Shown in pieces: positions 174 to 5,583 of a DNA stretch of 6,094 bases (its first letter is position 1; each line of letters opens with the position of its first letter). Both the position numbers and the translations under genes were made by a program. The stretch comes from a virus (Duplodnaviria; Heunggongvirae; Uroviricota; Caudoviricetes). The stretch lies in the IMG/VR virus record IMGVR_UViG_3300023487_000043, positions 1-6,094 of that record; one strand, written 5' to 3'. The notes below the pieces were generated by a model, which was given only the letters and a program-made list of their open reading frames with translations, was not told where the DNA came from and did no database searches.

Positions 174-200
174 AAAAAAATCGCCCTCACATCGGAGGGC
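174..200 (-). terminator. Intrinsic terminator between the 62-aa ORF and the partial ORF
   Basis: Stem GCCCTC (183-188) / GAGGGC (195-200) with 6-nt loop; on the minus strand it is followed by GA then a 7-T run (plus A174-180). Confidence 0.55.
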
Positions 201-295
201 AAAGAAGATTTCCAATAATCAGAACAAGTCGGCTCCTGTTTAGTTACGAGCGACATTGCTCCGTGTATTCACTCGTTGGAATGAATACACAGTGC

Positions 296-484
296 TTATT
301 CGTCATGCATTTCAGGTAATTCTTCGTATTCGACTCCCCATACGAGTTTACACCAAGTGACTCGCTCATATCTTTTACAAAAATCAGACCACATAACTTG
401 TGTTCCATCATGGTTTGTTATTACTTCTGTAATATCACCAACACTAACAAAACTGGTATTAGAAGCAGTTATTTTTACTTTCAT
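296..484 (-). CDS. Hypothetical small protein (62 aa)
   Basis: ORF track. Its ATG (484-482) overlaps the upstream stop by 1 nt (TAATG coupling). No recognisable motif. Confidence 0.4.
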   Translation of the reverse strand: MKVKITASNTSFVSVGDITEVITNHDGTQVMWSDFCKRYERVTWCKLVWGVEYEELPEMHDE

Positions 485-771
485 TACTTATCCCCAAGAG
501 CTTTTCTGATTGCTGCGATACCTTTATTAACAGCTCCATACCATTCTGGATATGTTGTCGTTGTTCTATTTTTGGTTTGCTTAAGTAATAACTGAAGTGC
601 TTCGAGAAGGTCAGGAGCTGCTGCTATCAGTAGCGCATCCTCCCTTTCATTTCTTGTTGCTGCTTCAATGTATGTGTCACCAATCGTCACACCATGGAAC
701 GTAGTCATCATCTCGTTGACGTTTCTAACCGTGTACTTCCATTTACCAGGCGTACCCTTAAACTCTTTCAT
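484..771 (-). CDS. Hypothetical protein (95 aa from ATG at 771; ORF track extends to GTG at 777)
   Basis: ORF track 484..777. The in-frame ATG at 771-769 has GAGG 5 nt upstream, so it is the preferred start. No family recognised. Confidence 0.5.
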   Translation of the reverse strand: MKEFKGTPGKWKYTVRNVNEMMTTFHGVTIGDTYIEAATRNEREDALLIAAAPDLLEALQLLLKQTKNRTTTTYPEWYGAVNKGIAAIRKALGDK

Positions 772-793
772 ATCCACCTCTGTTGTTTATGCC

Positions 794-819
794 AAAAATA
801 AAGGCCGACTATGCGGCCT
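794..819 (-). terminator. Putative intrinsic terminator overlapping the stop of the 156-aa ORF
   Basis: Stem AGGCCG (802-807) / CGGCCT (814-819) with 6-nt loop; minus strand continues TTATTTTT (plus 794-801). Could be an N-overridden tL-type terminator. Confidence 0.45.
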
Positions 820-1288
820 AGTAGAATACCCAATTTTCTGTTTCTTGGTTGTGTCCAAAGTTATATTCAATATCTGGTGTTGATGTATCAATATTCTTCA
901 TCCCATCAACAAGAGTTGATACAACAGCCAAATCTTGTTTGATTCTCATTAAATGGTACTTCTTCCGGCGCAATAAACTTTCAATGGCAAGTTTCTTCGT
1001 TGGGAATGCAAAAGATCTTTCTGCATTTTTTGCTACTTTCTTAATTGCATATCTATTTCTCCTTTGTTTCCATTCCTGTAACCACTGATTTGGTGCTGGT
1101 TTAAAATTAACAATCCAATGCGCAGGAACCAACCATGCATAATGCTCTGTCTGATGAAAAGCTATATATTGAAGTGCGAATATTTTGATTCCATCTTCTT
1201 CAACTGTCGCCTGGAATCTCCAGAAAACAGGCATTCCCTCATGTTCAGTTTCTGATTCAGGAAAAGGTACGCTCCATGATTTTGTCAT
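818..1288 (-). CDS. Hypothetical early protein (156 aa) immediately downstream of the N-like gene
   Basis: ORF track. Start ATG 1288-1286 with GAGGTGA upstream; this SD overlaps the N-like stop (1297-1299). No hydrophobic segments or known motif seen. Confidence 0.55.
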   Translation of the reverse strand: MTKSWSVPFPESETEHEGMPVFWRFQATVEEDGIKIFALQYIAFHQTEHYAWLVPAHWIVNFKPAPNQWLQEWKQRRNRYAIKKVAKNAERSFAFPTKKLAIESLLRRKKYHLMRIKQDLAVVSTLVDGMKNIDTSTPDIEYNFGHNQETENWVFY

Positions 1289-1296
1289 ATCTCACC

Positions 1297-1596
1297 TCAA
1301 ATAAGTGGTTTGCTGCCTAATTTCATTTTCTGGCGACCAACACAAGTCACACCCATTTCACTGCGTGGCTTGCTGTAGTAAATACGGTTCTGTTTACGCT
1401 CGACTTCTTCTGCCTTCTTGCAGCGAAGGCTTCCGAGTGATGCTGCTTTATCTGCTCTGACGCAACCAGAGAGCTTTAGCGCAATTTTTCGCGCCAGTCG
1501 CTGCTCTTGCATTGCCTGCTCACGTTGAGCCTGTCTGCGTGCTCTGCGGCGATTTCTGGCGTTATCGTCAGCCAGATATGTAATGACTACTGTCAT
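1297..1596 (-). CDS. N-like transcription antiterminator (P22 gene 24 / lambda N family)
   Basis: 99 aa. N-terminal MTVVITY followed by an arginine-rich motif NARNRRRARRQAQREQ typical of N-family boxB-binding peptides. First gene downstream of pL/nutL. GGAGG 5 nt upstream of the ATG. Confidence 0.7.
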   Translation of the reverse strand: MTVVITYLADDNARNRRRARRQAQREQAMQEQRLARKIALKLSGCVRADKAASLGSLRCKKAEEVERKQNRIYYSKPRSEMGVTCVGRQKMKLGSKPLI

Positions 1597-1703
1597 GTTG
1601 ACCTCCGATGATTGACTTTGGCGGTGACGCGCCGGGTGCTTATCTTCCGGTTGCCGTCGTGCAGCTGCACTTCACGTCACCCCAAAGCCAACTACTCTTT
1701 GGT

Positions 1704-1744
1704 TCCCGCATTTCGGCGGGACAATCCCATCAATGTTAAAGAGC
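1704..1744 (-). promoter_or_regulatory. nutL (boxA + boxB)
   Basis: Minus strand reads GCTCTTTAACA (boxA, plus 1734-1744), a 12-nt spacer, then hairpin UCCCGC-CGAAAU-GCGGGA (plus 1704-1721). The same boxA and an identical boxB recur at nutR. Confidence 0.6.
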
Positions 1745-1790
1745 CTGCCAATCTGTTCCGTTTGGCTTCCAGCGTCCTGCTGATGGCTTA

Positions 1791-1844
1791 AATTTAAGAT
1801 CTCTTTAATTAATGGTCAAGAGTATTTTTGAAGAAAACTTAAAT
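1791..1844 (-). promoter_or_regulatory. OL operators and putative pL
   Basis: 18-bp site ATTTAAGATCTCTTTAAT (1792-1809) fits the P22 c2 half-site pattern ATTTAAG/CTTTAAT. A second site TTTGAAGAAAACTTAAAT (1827-1844). Minus-strand -35 TTGACC (plus 1814-1819), 17-bp spacer, weak -10 TAAATT (plus 1791-1796). Confidence 0.55.
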
Positions 1845-1882
1845 TTTCTTTCGTAACTTAAGTTTGGCTTTGATTTTTAAAG

Positions 1883-1910
1883 GAAATAAAAAAAAGGGGC
1901 GAATGCCCCC
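1883..1910 (-). terminator. Intrinsic terminator immediately after the c2 stop
   Basis: Minus strand after the TAA stop: GGGGC-AUUC-GCCCC followed by 8 U (plus stem 1896-1900/1905-1909, A-run 1884-1895). Confidence 0.6.
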
Positions 1911-2561
1911 TTATGGAAGGTTTGCTAGTTTTGCATCGACAACTACGCCGATGATTTTGCAGTTTCCGTTGATCTCGATCATCGGATATTGTGGGTTAAG
2001 TGGTTTTAGAAACTTCCTGCCTGCATCAATAACTAACTTCTTGAAAGTTGCCTCGTTTTCTCCTTCGAGCTTTGCAACTACCAGTTTCCCGTTACGCGGC
2101 TCTACTTCAGGATCGACGAGTATTATCATTCCTTCAGGGATACTGAGACCGGCCGGAGCCGTCATTGAGTCTCCCTTCACATCCAACCAAAACGAATCTT
2201 CTGAACAGTCTACGGTTGTATCGTACCAGTTATCTATTGCACGCTTATGATATGGTTCTACAGCTTCCATCCAGCATCCTGCGCTCACCCAGCTAATCAG
2301 AGGGTATGACCCTCTTGGATCATGCCTACTGTGATAGGCAATGTTTGAAAGACTTTCCTCTCCTTTCATCAGATAGTCAGGGGAACACTTCAACGCATTA
2401 GCCAGGGCGAGAAGATTCTCTCCATTTGGCTCTGTCTCAGAGCGTTCCCACTGAGATATGGCAACATTAGACACGCCGACCATCTTTCCAAGTGCGGCCT
2501 GCCTGATCTTGAGTTCTTTTCTCCGAGCGCGAATGCGCTCTCCCATCAATTGAGTTTTCAT
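1911..2561 (-). CDS. c2: Prophage repressor, P22 c2-type (N-terminal HTH, C-terminal S24/LexA-like autopeptidase)
   Basis: 216 aa. Near-identical by recollection to P22 C2 (MKTQLMGERIRARRKELKIRQAALGKMVGVSNVAISQWERSE...). C-terminal GDSM serine motif. Divergent from cro across an operator region. Confidence 0.93.
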   Translation of the reverse strand: MKTQLMGERIRARRKELKIRQAALGKMVGVSNVAISQWERSETEPNGENLLALANALKCSPDYLMKGEESLSNIAYHSRHDPRGSYPLISWVSAGCWMEAVEPYHKRAIDNWYDTTVDCSEDSFWLDVKGDSMTAPAGLSIPEGMIILVDPEVEPRNGKLVVAKLEGENEATFKKLVIDAGRKFLKPLNPQYPMIEINGNCKIIGVVVDAKLANLP

Positions 2562-2562
2562 A

Positions 2563-2627
2563 GTTAAGACATCTTAAATAAACTTGACTTAAGATTCCTT
2601 TAGTGGATAATTTAAGTGTTCTTTAAT
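2563..2627. promoter_or_regulatory. OR1-OR2-OR3 with pR (rightward) and pRM (leftward)
   Basis: Three 18-bp sites at roughly 23-24 bp spacing: OR3 AGTTAAGACATCTTAAAT (2563-2580), OR2 ACTTAAGATTCCTTTAGT (2587-2604), OR1 ATTTAAGTGTTCTTTAAT (2610-2627). pR -35 TTGACT (2584-2589) and -10 GATAAT (2606-2611). pRM hexamers not confidently placed. Confidence 0.85.
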
Positions 2628-2641
2628 TTCGGAGCGAGTCT

Positions 2642-2827
2642 ATGTACAAGAAAGATGTTATCGACCACTTCGGAACCCAGCGTGCTGTAGCTAAAGCGTT
2701 AGGCATTAGCGACGCAGCAGTCTCTCAGTGGAAGGAAGTCATCCCAGAGAAAGACGCCTATCGACTGGAAGTCGTTACAGCTGGCGCCCTGAAGTATCAA
2801 GAAAGCGCTTACCGCAAAGCGGCATAA
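2642..2827 (+). CDS. cro: Cro (P22-type)
   Basis: 61 aa MYKKDVIDHFGTQRAVAKALGISDAAVSQWKEVIPEKDAYRLE..., matching P22 Cro by recollection. GGAG 7 nt upstream. First gene of the pR operon. Confidence 0.9.
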   Translation: MYKKDVIDHFGTQRAVAKALGISDAAVSQWKEVIPEKDAYRLEVVTAGALKYQESAYRKAA

Positions 2828-2834
2828 GCAAATT

Positions 2835-2877
2835 GCTCTTTAACAGTCATGGTCCTCATTCCCGCCGAAATGCGGGA
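2835..2877 (+). promoter_or_regulatory. nutR (boxA + boxB)
   Basis: GCTCTTTAACA (2835-2845), 14-nt spacer, hairpin TCCCGC-CGAAAT-GCGGGA (2860-2877), identical to the nutL boxB. Confidence 0.65.
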
Positions 2878-2884
2878 ATACAAC

Positions 2885-2902
2885 GCGCATAAGTTGATGC
2901 GC
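2885..2902 (+). other. Hairpin between nutR and cII (tR1-like position)
   Basis: GCGCAT (2885-2890) / ATGCGC (2897-2902) with 6-nt loop, followed by a T-rich stretch. Lambda tR1 is Rho-dependent, so function here is uncertain. Confidence 0.3.
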
Positions 2903-2917
2903 ATAACTTCTTATTTG

Positions 2918-2958
2918 TTAAGGAAATACTTACATATGGTTCGTGCAAACAAACGCAA
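2918..2958 (-). promoter_or_regulatory. pRE with CII-binding TTGC-N6-TTGC repeats
   Basis: Minus strand TTGCGTTTGTTTGC (plus 2945-2958) overlaps the first cII codons; -10-like AAGTAT (plus 2926-2931). Matches the lambda pRE arrangement by recollection. Points leftward through cro toward c2. Confidence 0.65.
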
Positions 2959-3229
2959 CGAGGCTCTAAGAATCGAGAGTGCGTTGCTTAACAAAATCGC
3001 AATGCTTGGAACTGAGAAGACAGCGGAAGCTGTGGGAGTTGATAAGTCGCAGATCAGCAGGTGGAAGAGGGATTGGATTCCAAAGTTCTCAATGCTGCTT
3101 GCTGTTCTTGAATGGGGCGTCGTCGACGACGACATGGCTCGATTGGCACGACAAGTTGCTTCGATTCTCACCAATAAAAAACGCCCGGCGGCAACCGAGC
3201 GTTCTGAACAAATCCAGATGGAATTCTGA
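2936..3229 (+). CDS. cII: CII transcriptional activator (lambda-type)
   Basis: 97 aa MVRANKRNEALRIESALLNKIAMLGTEKTAEAVGVDKSQISRWKRDWIPKFSMLLAVLEWGVVDDDMARLARQVASILTNKKRPAATERSEQIQMEF, essentially identical to lambda CII by recollection. The ORF-track start at 2849 is an upstream frame extension. Confidence 0.92.
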   Translation: MVRANKRNEALRIESALLNKIAMLGTEKTAEAVGVDKSQISRWKRDWIPKFSMLLAVLEWGVVDDDMARLARQVASILTNKKRPAATERSEQIQMEF

Positions 3230-3261: not shown

Positions 3262-3906
3262 ATGACATACGAAAATGACAAATTCCAGGTTCTGAAGAGC
3301 ATGAAGGTGCCAGATGATTTTAAATCAAATGGCTTTGTTTATGTGCTTTCGAATGAGTGCATGCCAGGAATTTATAAGATTGGGATGACTAAGCATTCAC
3401 CAGAAGTTAGGGCTAAAGAAATTTCAGCCTCTACTGGCGTTCCTAAGCCATTTAAGGTGATAGCAGCCTTTCATTCAAATAATCCAGCATCAGATGAAAA
3501 ACTCATTCATAAAGCCTTTGCAAAAGAGAGGCTTAGTGATAATCGAGAGTTTTTCAAGCTTGAAGATAATGAGCTTTCTGAATCTCTAAATGAAATAAGG
3601 GCGCTGGTTGGCCCTGAAAGAAATGGCGAGACGGCAGAATACGCAATTTACGACGCATTCATTTCTTTTCGCCATGAAAATGAGCTTGATCTTAATGAGG
3701 AGCTTATAGAGCAAGGTCTGGGTAGTGTAGTTGGTCATCTTCCTGCGGTGAAAAATTTCCTTATTCGCGCCGGAATTGATTACGCGAAGCAACTGATAAG
3801 CAAATATAACTCATCGATAGTTATTAATACAGATGGCAGTGTGGTGATGGTTAAGTCTCTTGAAGCCCAATGCTTTGATGCGGAGGTTGGAAATGAGCCT
3901 GGCTGA
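3262..3906 (+). CDS. T5orf172 / GIY-YIG-like domain protein (214 aa) with uncharacterised C-terminal half
   Basis: AGGAG (3253-3257) then ATG 3262. Motifs GFVYVLSN...PGIYKIGMT...EVRAKE...PFKV...EKLIHKAF...NREFF match the T5orf172 pattern. AT-richer than flanking genes by eye. Sits between cII and the O-like gene. Confidence 0.7.
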   Translation: MTYENDKFQVLKSMKVPDDFKSNGFVYVLSNECMPGIYKIGMTKHSPEVRAKEISASTGVPKPFKVIAAFHSNNPASDEKLIHKAFAKERLSDNREFFKLEDNELSESLNEIRALVGPERNGETAEYAIYDAFISFRHENELDLNEELIEQGLGSVVGHLPAVKNFLIRAGIDYAKQLISKYNSSIVINTDGSVVMVKSLEAQCFDAEVGNEPG

Positions 3907-4735
3907 AGTATTTTACCTGCCGAAGAGTGAACCTGTTGAACAGGAGCGAAGAGTGGCTGATATCGATGATGGTTACACCAGATTCGCTAACGAGCTGCTG
4001 GAAGCTATCGCAAGTGCCGATTTAACCGCTCGCCAGTTGAAAGTTATGCTGGCCTACGTCCGGAAAACATATGGCTTCAATAAGAAAACAGATCGAATAG
4101 CCGATGAGCAAATTGCTCAGTTAACAGGACTGTCAAGGCAGAATGTTAACAAGGCTAAAAAAGAACTGATTTCAATGAATTGCCTGTTTATGGATGGAAA
4201 TCAAATCGGTGTAAACAGGGAGGTATCTGCGTGGCAATTCAGCAAGTGTCTCCAAGTTAGCAACTTTGTCTCGAAGTTAGAGACAAAAAGTGTCTCCAAA
4301 TTAGAGACACTCAATGTCTCGAAGTTAGAGACACACAAAAGACATTCTTTAAAGACAAAAGAAAATATTAATAAACCCCCTATATCCCCCAAAAAAGTTT
4401 CTCAGAAGTTCGACCCGCTAGAAACAGAGTTGCCTGATTGGTTATCAGCAGAAACATGGTTGTCGTGGGTTACCTATCGCAAGGAGATAGGTAAGTCGAT
4501 CAAGTCTAAGCAAAGTGTCACTCAGGCTATCAACGTTCTATGCAGAAGTCTGGAGAAGGGATATACACCTGAAGAAATTATAAACCAGAGCATCGCCAGT
4601 GGTTGGCAGGGTATTTTTGAGCCCAAGACTCCAAAGGGGAAATCTCAACCGAGGCCGCAGCATCGAGCTATGCAGGAAAACTTTGCCACCAAAGATTACG
4701 GACAAACTGAAATGCCTTCATGGGCGCAGGAGTGA
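3893..4735 (+). CDS. Replication initiator, lambda O-like (280 aa from ATG 3893)
   Basis: QERRVADIDDGYTRFANELLEA...RQLKVMLAYVRKTYGFNKKTDRI aligns with the lambda O N-terminal domain (QERNVADLDDGYARLSNMLLEA...). GGAGG 6 nt before ATG 3893. Iterons lie mid-gene. The upstream TTG (3860) and ATG (3878) lack an SD. Confidence 0.85.
   Translation: MSLAEVFYLPKSEPVEQERRVADIDDGYTRFANELLEAIASADLTARQLKVMLAYVRKTYGFNKKTDRIADEQIAQLTGLSRQNVNKAKKELISMNCLFMDGNQIGVNREVSAWQFSKCLQVSNFVSKLETKSVSKLETLNVSKLETHKRHSLKTKENINKPPISPKKVSQKFDPLETELPDWLSAETWLSWVTYRKEIGKSIKSKQSVTQAINVLCRSLEKGYTPEEIINQSIASGWQGIFEPKTPKGKSQPRPQHRAMQENFATKDYGQTEMPSWAQE
4247..4400. repeat. Replication origin: four iterons plus AT-rich region inside the O-like gene
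   Basis: 17-bp iterons at 4248-4264 (GTCTCCAAGTTAGCAAC), 4268-4284 and 4316-4332 (GTCTCGAAGTTAGAGAC), 4292-4308 (GTCTCCAAATTAGAGAC), each with GTCTC/GAGAC dyad ends. Followed by an A/T-rich tract 4333-4400. Confidence 0.8.
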
Positions 4736-4737
4736 AC

Positions 4738-5583
4738 ATGACGCTGGATGAAAAGATCTCCCAACTGGAGAAAAAACTTGCAGAATTGAGTTCTCCGCCA
4801 ATTGCTATCGAGCATACAGCTGTAGAAATTGGCACTGGCATCTGTGAAAAACATGGTGAGTTTGAGCAGCGTAACCGTTACTCGACTGGGCCAATTAAGT
4901 TTGCCTCAAGACCTAGCGAATGCCCGGAATGCATGAGAGATGAGCTTATTCGGCTACAGGCAGAGAAGATTAAAATCGACGAGGAATCACGTAAGCGCAA
5001 TGTCGAGTTTCTGTTGAATAATCTTGATATTCCTGAACGATTCAAGGGTTGCACACTACAGAACTACGAGCCAGTCAACGACGATGCAAAGAGAGTGCTC
5101 AGGGTGTGTCAGGCATACGCCAGCAAATGGCCTGAGAGGTTACAGAAAGGCGGTGGGCTGGTTATGTGTGGAAAGCCTGGTACTGGAAAGAATCATCTTG
5201 CACTGGCTATCGCCCGGCACGCAATTACGGAACATCAAAGCTCAGCTATTTTCACAACGGCGCTGAAAATTGCCAGAGAATATAAATCAACATGGTCGAA
5301 AAACTCCACCCGCACAGAGGATGAAGTGATCCGACAGTTCACTAAACCTGACCTGCTAATTATCGATGAGGTTGGTGTGCAGTTCGGAAGCGAGGCGGAA
5401 AAGATGATCATGTTCGAAATCATCAACACCCGCTACGAGCGCATGAAGCCAACAATCCTGATTAGCAACCAGAGCAAAGATGAACTGTCTGCATTCATTG
5501 GTGAGCGTGTTATTGACAGGATGAATGATGGCGGCGGATGCACCCTTGCGTTTACATGGGATAGTTACAGGAGCAGAACGTGA
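4738..5583 (+). CDS. DnaC-like helicase loader (AAA+ ATPase, IstB/DnaC family)
   Basis: Walker A GKPGTGKNHLALAI and Walker B LLIIDEVG. AGGAG (4728-4732) 5 nt before ATG 4738, directly after the O-like stop (4733-4735). The ORF-track start at 4720 has no SD. N-terminal Cys/His cluster (CEKH...CPEC). Confidence 0.85.
   Translation: MTLDEKISQLEKKLAELSSPPIAIEHTAVEIGTGICEKHGEFEQRNRYSTGPIKFASRPSECPECMRDELIRLQAEKIKIDEESRKRNVEFLLNNLDIPERFKGCTLQNYEPVNDDAKRVLRVCQAYASKWPERLQKGGGLVMCGKPGTGKNHLALAIARHAITEHQSSAIFTTALKIAREYKSTWSKNSTRTEDEVIRQFTKPDLLIIDEVGVQFGSEAEKMIMFEIINTRYERMKPTILISNQSKDELSAFIGERVIDRMNDGGGCTLAFTWDSYRSRT

What the first reader, a model, noticed from the sequence alone, without database searches (positions are those of the whole stretch)
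1704..2877. Matched nutL/nutR pair with rrn-like boxA and identical 18-nt boxB
Both nut sites carry GCTCTTTAACA, closer to the rrn boxA consensus than to lambda CGCTCTTA. Both carry the identical hairpin UCCCGC-CGAAAU-GCGGGA, a 6-bp stem with a hexaloop. This pairs with the arginine-rich motif NARNRRRARRQAQREQ in the N-like protein and defines a specific N-boxB recognition pair.
Basis: partly seen in the sequence, partly recalled or inferred. Interest (0 to 1): 0.35.

Follow-up and report, generated by a model that had tools for sequence, protein, structure and literature searches.

The report
HK620-type phage nutL/nutR antitermination sites
These are the two ordinary N-utilisation (nut) sites of a lambda-like E. 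coli phage, identical to sites annotated in phage HK620 in 2001, so the reading is correct but not new.

Summary
The 18-nt hairpin TCCCGCCGAAATGCGGGA sits at 1704-1721 (-) and 2860-2877 (+). Each copy lies 12-14 nt after GCTCTTTAACA, and none is expected by chance. The layout is the canonical lambdoid one: pL, nutL, N leftward and pR, cro, nutR, cII rightward.

Both sites are base-for-base identical to the nutL and nutR annotated in phage HK620 (GenBank AF335538). The rrn-like boxA is the same as in phage 21, so lambda is the outlier. The nutL stretch occurs in about 10% of complete E. coli genomes.

Comparative evidence supports a specific ARM-boxB pair:
- In about 190 non-redundant viral loci, the ARM NARNRRRARRQ always goes with this boxB at both sites. 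The phage 21 ARM always goes with the phage 21 boxB.
- boxB follows the ARM whichever of three C-terminal N modules, or about 10 immunity regions, is present.
- In Pantoea relatives the loop, not the stem, tracks the ARM.

The window's N is a natural chimera of the HK620 ARM and the phage 21 body. Binding and antitermination remain untested. The one mildly novel idea is that the loop is a GAAA tetraloop closed by a C.U pair, by analogy with phage 21.

The parts
1791..1819 (-). pL-like promoter (TTGACC, 17 nt spacer, TAAATT)
   Evidence: Consensus scan. This stretch lies within the leader that is identical to the phage 21 pL leader.
1734..1744 (-). nutL boxA, GCTCTTTAACA
   Evidence: Identical to HK620 nutL and to phage 21 boxA-L.
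1704..1721 (-). nutL boxB: UCCCGC-CGAAAU-GCGGGA, 6-bp stem with a hexaloop
   Evidence: Lies inside the HK620 feature annotated 'nutL'.
1297..1596 (-). N antiterminator gene (99 aa). Residues 1-33 are HK620-type, including the ARM. Residues 34-99 are phage 21 type.
   Evidence: Residues 62-99 match lambda N 74-110 in PDB 6GOV, E = 2.7e-5. Pfam N_peptide scores 18.5 bits, below its cut-off.
1516..1563 (-). Codons for the arginine-rich motif NARNRRRARRQAQREQ (residues 12-27)
   Evidence: Translation. The core A-[RK]-N-R-R-R-A-R-R is conserved in Pantoea relatives that carry the same boxB loop.
802..819 (-). Intrinsic-terminator-like hairpin in the pL operon, just after the 156-aa ORF
   Evidence: A candidate target of N-modified RNA polymerase (inference).
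181..202 (-). Second intrinsic-terminator-like hairpin with a T-run in the pL operon
1911..2561 (-). cI-type repressor (HTH_3 plus Peptidase_S24), lying between the two nut sites
   Evidence: Followed by a terminator-like hairpin at 1893-1912 (-).
2584..2611 (+). pR-like promoter (TTGACT, 16 nt spacer, GATAAT)
2642..2827 (+). cro (P22_Cro family)
2834..2845 (+). nutR boxA, TGCTCTTTAACA, a 12-nt match to the rrn leader boxA
   Evidence: Identical to HK620 and phage 21.
2858..2879 (+). nutR boxB: the same 18-nt core (2860-2877), with the stem extended to 8 bp by A-U pairs
   Evidence: Lies inside the HK620 feature annotated 'nutR'.
2885..2902 (+). Hairpin GCGCAT-AAGTTG-ATGCGC immediately after nutR, a candidate for the tR1 region
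   Evidence: Folded. HK620 annotates tR1 immediately downstream of nutR, at a stretch whose sequence is identical in the window. Function is inferred.
2936..3229 (+). cII (Phage_CII family), the first gene beyond nutR/tR1
   Evidence: Its start region is identical to that of lambda cII.

Best explanation
The two sites are the nutL and nutR sites of a lambdoid (P22-like/HK620-like) temperate phage of E. coli.

Proposed mechanism:
1. Transcripts from pL and pR carry a single-stranded boxA (GCUCUUUAACA) that recruits the host NusB/NusE proteins.
2. Twelve to fourteen nucleotides later they carry the boxB hairpin UCCCGC-CGAAAU-GCGGGA.
3. The phage N protein (1297-1596, minus strand) binds the boxB loop through its N-terminal arginine-rich helix (residues about 12-27).
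4. Its phage-21/lambda-like C-terminal part binds NusA and RNA polymerase.
5. The modified polymerase then reads through terminators downstream in both early operons.

What is shown: the sequence anatomy, identity to catalogued nut sites, predicted folding, homology of the N C-terminus to lambda N, and covariation of ARM with boxB loop.

What is inferred: physical binding, Nus-factor dependence, and which terminators are overridden.
For: Exact duplicated boxA and boxB in divergent orientation at the canonical positions.

Identity to the nutL and nutR annotated in HK620, and to the phage 21 boxA.

The hairpin is stable in transcript context.

N residues 62-99 are homologous to lambda N 74-110, as seen in PDB entry 6GOV.

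Among about 190 non-redundant IMG/VR loci, 133 carry the HK620 ARM with the HK620 boxB at both sites. A further 59 carry the phage 21 ARM with the phage 21 boxB at both sites. None is discordant.

The same boxB pair flanks about 10 unrelated immunity-region clusters. It also accompanies three different N C-terminal modules.

The Pantoea relatives PA-1 and L500 keep the loop CGAAAU and the ARM core A[RK]NRRRARR, although flanking DNA and stem details have diverged. Pantoea L501 has the same nutR stem as PA-1, but a phage-21-like loop (CUAAUC) together with a phage-21-like ARM (AKSRYRARR).

Terminator-like hairpins lie downstream in both operons.
Against: There is no experimental evidence here or in the searchable literature for binding or antitermination by this particular N/boxB type.

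The Pfam N_peptide match is below its gathering score (18.5 against 27.9 bits).

Within E. coli phages the boxB is invariant, so the stem offers no compensatory changes there. The related sequences are also not independent samples.

Equilibrium folding of the whole pL leader predicts boxA to be mostly paired, although co-transcriptional folding is what matters.
Confidence: 0.9

Rival explanations
1. The duplicated hairpins are conserved only because they hitch-hike with flanking DNA through mosaic recombination. They could be terminators or Rho-related elements with no specific link to the N arginine-rich motif.
For: The boxB is invariant in E. coli phages, so there is little within-host covariation. 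A hairpin directly follows nutR.
Against: Neither copy is followed by a T-run. nutL and nutR are separated by about 10 unrelated immunity regions, yet they always match each other and the ARM. The flanks are shared with phage 21 while boxB and ARM alone are replaced. In Pantoea L501 the loop switches together with the ARM on an unchanged stem.
Confidence: 0.04
2. The sites act as protein-independent antiterminator RNAs, like the put sites of HK022, or as targets of a Nun-type exclusion protein, rather than as N-binding sites.
For: Some relatives (mEpX1, mEp235) encode Nun-like proteins next to N. Nun proteins are known to bind boxB (background knowledge).
Against: An intact N gene with an ARM and a lambda-like C-terminus lies directly downstream of nutL. 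The element is a simple boxA plus an 18-nt hairpin. The put RNAs known from the literature are larger two-stem structures (background knowledge). No Rfam family matched anywhere in the window.
Confidence: 0.03
3. N binds this boxB, but recognition is not type-specific, so phage 21, P22 or lambda N would work as well. 'A specific recognition pair' would then overstate the case.
For: The ARMs of all types share the register A-x-x-R-x-x-A/E-R-R. Overlap between P22 and lambda boxB requirements has been reported (background knowledge, not checked here).
Against: No mixed ARM/boxB combination appears in about 190 loci, although recombination at the shared boxA and the shared mid-N segment is evidently frequent. 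This implies selection against mismatched sets.
Confidence: 0.1

Closest known systems
Phage HK620 nutL / nutR and N (GenBank AF335538; annotated features 'nutL', 'nutR', 'antitermination protein N')
   Same: boxA, spacer and boxB are identical at both sites. The leader from nutL to the N start is 99% identical. N residues 1-64 are 98% identical.
   Different: The C-terminal third of N differs. HK620 has the ...CSGSICLPNVAIYAAGYRKSKQLTAR ending, while the window has the phage 21 ending. The immunity region between the nut sites is also different (about 1.16 kb against about 1.70 kb between the boxB copies).
Phage 21 N / boxB (NMR structure PDB 1NYB)
   Same: Identical boxA and pL leader. N residues 34-99 are 97-98% identical. 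boxB has the same geometry, a 6-bp stem with a hexaloop that begins with C and ends with a pyrimidine. The ARM is in the same register, with A13, R16, A19, R20 and R21 invariant.
   Different: The loop is CUAACC rather than CGAAAU, and the stem sequences are unrelated. The ARM is TAKSRYKARRAELIAE rather than NARNRRRARRQAQREQ. The two types never mix in nature.
Phage P22 gp24 (N) / boxB (PDB 1A4T)
   Same: The N-terminus MTV(V)ITY and the motif NA[KR]xRRxxRR are shared. boxA is CGCTCTTTA. P22 nutR boxB (ACCGC-C-GACAA-C-GCGGT) shares the CCGCCGA...GCGG core with the window's boxB, and its loop is also flanked by two unpaired pyrimidines.
   Different: P22 has a GACAA pentaloop with an extruded C (PMC12550061). 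Here the loop core is GAAA. The rest of the P22 N protein is unrelated to the phage-21-like body.
Lambda N / boxB (PDB 1QFQ; transcription antitermination complex 6GOV)
   Same: Same system architecture. The ARM core A-x-x-RRR-x-RR is shared. The C-terminal segment is homologous, E = 2.7e-5. The purine-rich GAAA loop core is similar.
   Different: Lambda boxA is CGCTCTTA, not rrn-like. Lambda boxB is a 5-bp stem with a GAAAA or GAAGA pentaloop. There is no equivalent of lambda Trp18; the aligned residue here is Ala.
E. coli rrn leader boxA (NusB/NusE-dependent rRNA antitermination)
   Same: TGCTCTTTAACA at nutR is a 12-nt exact match to the rrn leader.
   Different: In the rrn leader the order of elements and the protein partners differ, and no N protein is involved (background knowledge). 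Here boxA is followed by an N-specific boxB.

Membership tests
Lambdoid N/nut processive antitermination system | Two nut sites, one early in the pL transcript and one early in the pR transcript after cro, each made of boxA, a short spacer and a boxB hairpin | tested here: met
   nutL is at 1704-1744 (-) and nutR at 2834-2879 (+).
Lambdoid N/nut processive antitermination system | N is the first gene of the pL operon: small, basic, with an N-terminal arginine-rich motif | tested here: met
   99-aa ORF at 1297-1596 (-), preceded by GGAGG, with the ARM at residues 12-27.
Lambdoid N/nut processive antitermination system | N C-terminal region homologous to the lambda N C-terminal region | tested here: met
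   Residues 62-99 align with lambda N 74-110 (PDB 6GOV chain N), E = 2.7e-5.
Lambdoid N/nut processive antitermination system | Match to the Pfam N_peptide family (PF25694) above its gathering score | tested here: inconclusive
   18.5 bits against a cut-off of 27.9, E = 0.0029.
Lambdoid N/nut processive antitermination system | N- and Nus-dependent readthrough of downstream terminators | not testable with these tools
   Only terminator-like hairpins downstream can be shown.
HK620-type nut specificity class | boxB = UCCCGCCGAAAUGCGGGA at both sites, paired with the ARM ...NARNRRRARRQ... | tested here: met
   Identical to HK620. The pairing holds in 133 of 133 informative loci.
Phage 21-like boxB structural class (a hexaloop holding a four-base GNRA-like fold closed by a pyrimidine-pyrimidine pair) | 6-bp stem with a 6-nt loop of the form C-NNNN-Y | tested here: met
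   Predicted secondary structures. The loop is C-GAAA-U against C-UAAC-C in phage 21.
Phage 21-like boxB structural class (a hexaloop holding a four-base GNRA-like fold closed by a pyrimidine-pyrimidine pair) | The inner four loop bases adopt a GNRA-like fold, and the first and sixth loop bases form a non-canonical pair when peptide is bound | not testable with these tools
   This is known for phage 21 only (PMC12550061, read). Here it is an inference by analogy.
HK022-type put RNA (protein-independent antitermination) | A larger two-stem RNA acting without N, in a phage that lacks N | tested here: not met
   An intact N gene is present. The element is boxA plus a single 18-nt hairpin. No Rfam family matched.

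The most novel reading that the evidence does not exclude
The HK620-type boxB may be a fourth, structurally uncharacterised N-recognition solution. It would be a genuine GNRA tetraloop (GAAA) closed by a C.U pair, sitting on the phage 21 hexaloop scaffold. In phage 21 the corresponding loop is a UAAC GNRA-mimic closed by a C-C pair.

On this reading, three ARM positions would form a minimal natural specificity switch between the two loops: N15/S, R17/Y and R18/K. The Pantoea prophage L501 would be an evolutionary intermediate, having the HK620-type stem with a phage-21-like loop and ARM.
Probability: 0.4. Interest if true: 0.3.

Novelty: already known. Interest (0 to 1): 0.12.

Why it matters
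For annotation, it confirms that this window is a standard lambdoid early-control region, and that its nut sites can be labelled by identity to HK620.

Beyond that, the value is modest. The data give a clean natural domain-swap demonstration that boxB specificity resides in N residues 1-33 and in the boxB loop. They also point to a common N/boxB type, present in roughly a tenth of complete E. coli genomes, that no paper in the searched open-access library has characterised biochemically or structurally. An orthogonal peptide-RNA pair of this kind could also serve as a tethering tag alongside the lambda, P22 and phage 21 pairs.

Tried and rejected
1. Natural variants of the two loop-flanking bases. 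I scanned IMG/VR for CCCGC-D-GAAA-N-GCGGG and CCCGC-N-GAAA-V-GCGGG, then filtered for an upstream boxA. The hits were unrelated GC-rich hairpins, and the single boxA-like case was a plain terminator. This gave no information on the C.U idea.

2. Literature on HK620 N/boxB biochemistry. Only one open-access paper mentions both HK620 and boxB, and only in passing. The HK620 genome paper, the P22 boxB requirement paper, the phage 21 NMR paper and a lambda review I tried were not held.

3. Rfam. No family matched anywhere in the window at E <= 1.

4. Phage 21 or P22 N peptides in the PDB. A sequence search with the whole N found only lambda N. The short ARM peptides were not recovered.

5. Terminator reading of the hairpins. 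Rejected, because neither copy has a T-run and both fit the nut position.

6. The idea that the rrn-like boxA is special. Rejected, because it is identical in phage 21 and near-identical in P22.

Full report
**What is in the window**

The 6094-nt window is the early regulatory region of a lambdoid temperate phage.

- On the minus strand lie a 99-aa N-like ORF (1297-1596) and a cI-type repressor (1911-2561, HTH_3 plus Peptidase_S24).
- On the plus strand lie cro (2642-2827, P22_Cro), cII (2936-3229, Phage_CII), a T5orf172/MUG113-domain gene (3262-3906), an ORF in the position of replication gene O (3860-4735) and an ORF in the position of the DnaC-like loader (4720-5583). The names of the last two come from the matching genes of phages N7 and CurroJimenez_Bas106.
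- The best database match is Escherichia phage N7 (Lederbergvirus): 99.5% identity over 63% of the window. Other mosaic matches include CUS-3, IME10, HK620, mEp phages and phage 21.

**Checking the observation**

- TCCCGCCGAAATGCGGGA occurs exactly twice, at 1704-1721 (-) and 2860-2877 (+). None was found in 200 shuffles even with two mismatches allowed.
- GCTCTTTAACA occurs exactly twice, at 1734-1744 (-) and 2835-2845 (+). Each copy lies 12-14 nt upstream of the hairpin on the same strand.
- The isolated hairpin folds as a 6-bp stem with the hexaloop CGAAAU, at -9.7 kcal/mol and z = -2.9. At nutR, flanking A-U pairs extend the stem to 8 bp.
- I modelled leaders running from the predicted pL and pR starts. 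The boxB stem pairs have probabilities of 0.72-0.85 at nutL and 0.99-1.0 at nutR.
- The quoted arginine-rich motif (ARM) is residues 12-27 of the ORF.

**The boxA**

- The rrn leader sequence TGCTCTTTAACAA is present in all 5426 complete E. coli genomes, a median of 7 times per genome. In the example inspected it lies about 100 nt upstream of the 16S rRNA gene.
- nutR carries TGCTCTTTAACA. Lambda has CGCTCTTA at both of its sites.
- This is not a special feature of the element, however. Phage 21 has the very same boxA with the same flanks, and P22 nutL has CGCTCTTTAAC. Among these phages lambda is the outlier.

**Identity with known sites**

- The stretch from nutL to the 5' end of N is 99% identical to phage HK620.
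- The HK620 GenBank record (AF335538) annotates 'nutL; putative N-utilization leftward' and 'nutR; putative N-utilization rightward'. It also annotates pL, pR, tR1 and 'antitermination protein N'.
- Reading those features shows boxA, spacer and boxB identical to the window at both sites.
- About 26 isolated phage records carry the same N-terminal part of N. They include HK620, HK630, HK140, CUS-3, mEp213, IME10, N7, ECP1 and some Stx phages.
- The 71-nt nutL stretch is found in 523 of 5426 complete E. coli genomes.

The feature is therefore already catalogued and common.

**The N protein is a chimera**

A three-way alignment of the window, HK620 and phage 21 shows the following:

| Segment | Window vs phage 21 | Window vs HK620 |
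|---|---|---|
| pL leader and boxA | 100% | 97% |
| boxB | 39% | 100% |
| boxB to N start codon | 73% | 99% |
| N codons 1-33 (ARM) | 43% | 99% |
| N middle | 100% | 99% |
| N C-terminal third | 99% | 28% |

The window's N is thus the HK620 ARM joined to the phage 21 body. Its residues 62-99 align with lambda N 74-110, as seen in PDB 6GOV (E = 2.7e-5). This supports homology with the lambda antiterminator, although the Pfam N_peptide hit is below threshold.

**Is it a specific recognition pair?**

I collected loci by N protein similarity, using the window N and phage 21 N as queries. I then read the ARM and the hairpin after boxA on both strands.

- Every HK620-type ARM was accompanied by the HK620-type boxB at nutL and nutR. 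Every phage 21 ARM was accompanied by the phage 21 boxB.
- After removing duplicate sequences the counts were 133 and 59, with no discordant case. The few 'none' entries are truncated contigs or longer insertions.
- The same boxB pair flanks about 10 unrelated clusters of immunity region, with 1.13 to 3.4 kb between the two boxB copies.
- The ARM and the C-terminal module assort independently. Phage 21 has ARM21 with C21. VT1-Sakai has ARM21 with the HK620-like C-terminus. HK620 has ARM-HK with C-HK. The window has ARM-HK with C21. Escherichia sp. E1V33 has ARM-HK with an mEpX1-like C-terminus.
- In all of these, boxB follows the ARM and nothing else.

This is a natural domain-swap experiment. 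It agrees with the established modular organisation of N: the ARM binds boxB, and the rest binds NusA and RNA polymerase (background knowledge).

**More distant relatives sharpen this**

- Pantoea phage PA-1 and a Pantoea piersonii prophage (L500) have N proteins only about 46-50% identical to the window's. They keep the ARM core A-[RK]-N-R-R-R-A-R-R and the loop CGAAAU.
- Their stems vary. At nutR there is a C.A mismatch compensated by extra outer G-C pairs. At L500 nutL there is an inserted U.G pair.
- A third Pantoea prophage (L501) has a nutR with the same stem as PA-1 but the loop CUAAUC, close to the phage 21 loop CUAACC. Its ARM is AKSRYRARR, close to the phage 21 AKSRYKARR.
- The loop and ARM positions 15, 17 and 18 therefore change together on a constant stem. 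This points to the loop as the specificity determinant.

**How the hairpin is probably recognised (inference)**

- All boxBs in this clade (phage 21, HK620-type, Pantoea) fold as a stem with a hexaloop that begins with C.
- A 2025 survey of GNRA-like motifs describes the phage 21 hexaloop CUAACC in PDB 1NYB. It is a UAAC (UMAC) GNRA-like fold flanked by a non-canonical C-C pair. The same survey describes the P22 GACAA pentaloop as a GNRA fold with the C looped out (PMC12550061).
- By analogy, C-GAAA-U would be a true GNRA tetraloop closed by a C.U pair.
- P22 nutR (ACCGC-C-GACAA-C-GCGGT) shares the CCGCCGA...GCGG core with the window's boxB.
- The window's ARM lacks both the Trp of lambda N and the Leu-Ala-Ile patch that occupies the aligned positions of P22 N. 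Neither of those two recognition modes need therefore apply; this last step rests on background knowledge of the lambda and P22 complexes.
- I could not test this. Scans for natural variants of the loop-flanking bases returned only unrelated hairpins.

**Targets of antitermination**

- Downstream of N in the pL operon there are terminator-like hairpins with T-runs at 819->802 and 202->181.
- Downstream of nutR there is a hairpin at 2885-2902. HK620 annotates tR1 immediately downstream of nutR, in sequence that is identical in the window.
- Which of these N actually overrides is inferred.

**Rivals**

- A hitch-hiking or terminator reading is contradicted by the missing T-runs and by the covariation across unrelated contexts.
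- A put-like, protein-independent RNA is contradicted by the intact N gene and the small size of the element. No Rfam family matched.
- Non-specific recognition by any N is made unlikely by the absence of mixed sets, given evident recombination at the shared boxA and the shared middle of N. Only cross-complementation assays can settle that point.

**Verdict**

The finding is ordinary and already known: it is the HK620-type nut/N set, in a window whose N carries a phage 21 body.

No open-access paper in the searched library reports biochemistry on this type. The only residual novelty is therefore the untested structural reading of the loop and the three-residue ARM switch. Interest is low, at 0.12.

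Noticed in passing
window 3262-3906 (+): A 214-aa gene with T5orf172/MUG113 domains sits between cII and the replication gene O. In the closest phage, N7, the cII-like gene and O are adjacent with nothing between them, so this looks like an inserted accessory gene or homing-type element.
   Followed up: partly
window 4247-4333 (+): Four copies of a 19-nt iteron (TGTCTCGAAGTTAGAGACA) at 20-24 nt spacing lie inside the O-like gene and encode the repeated peptide SKLET. This is presumably the replication origin, as in lambda.
   Followed up: partly
window 1297-1596 (-), with loci L002, L003, L289, L290, L499: N proteins are shuffled from at least two ARM modules and three C-terminal modules. Crossovers fall at the shared boxA leader and at a 94-nt segment in the middle of N that is 99-100% identical between the types.
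   Followed up: yes
loci L125-L204, region between nutL boxB and the N start codon: The distance from nutL boxB to the N start varies in steps among otherwise near-identical loci: 107, 114, 142, 194, about 311-331, 358 and more than 400 nt. This indicates insertions between nutL and N. HK140 annotates a small ORF there and CUS-3 a 'boundary sequence'.
   Followed up: no
L501 (Pantoea sp. FN060301 chromosome), about 160 nt upstream of the N start at locus position 4001, and the opposite strand: This prophage has a phage-21-like ARM (AKSRYRARR). Its two boxB loops differ from each other: CUGACA at nutL and CUAAUC at nutR. The nutR stem is the same as in phage PA-1. It may be an evolutionary intermediate between the HK620 and phage 21 specificities.
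   Followed up: partly
window about 1670-1690 (-), just downstream of nutL boxB: The motif GGCTTTGGGGTG after boxB is conserved in lambda (ggctttggggtgtgtg), in phage 21 (ggttttgggga) and partly in Pantoea PA-1. It may correspond to the boxC element of nut regions. Its role was not examined.
   Followed up: no
window 3178-3205 (-): A strong terminator-like hairpin (12 pairs plus a T-run) lies on the minus strand inside the 3' end of cII. This is the position of the oop RNA terminator in P22, as annotated in the P22 record.
   Followed up: no
window 818-1288 (-), 484-777 (-), 296-484 (-): Three pL-operon ORFs downstream of N (156, 97 and 62 aa) have no significant Pfam match. They occupy the position where related phages carry ral, sieB or other accessory genes.
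   Followed up: no
window 1734-1744 (-) within the pL leader: Equilibrium folding of the 285-nt pL leader predicts that most of boxA is base-paired (unpaired probability about 0-0.1 for the first six bases). At nutR boxA is mostly open. This may be an artefact of whole-transcript folding, or a real difference between the two sites.
   Followed up: no
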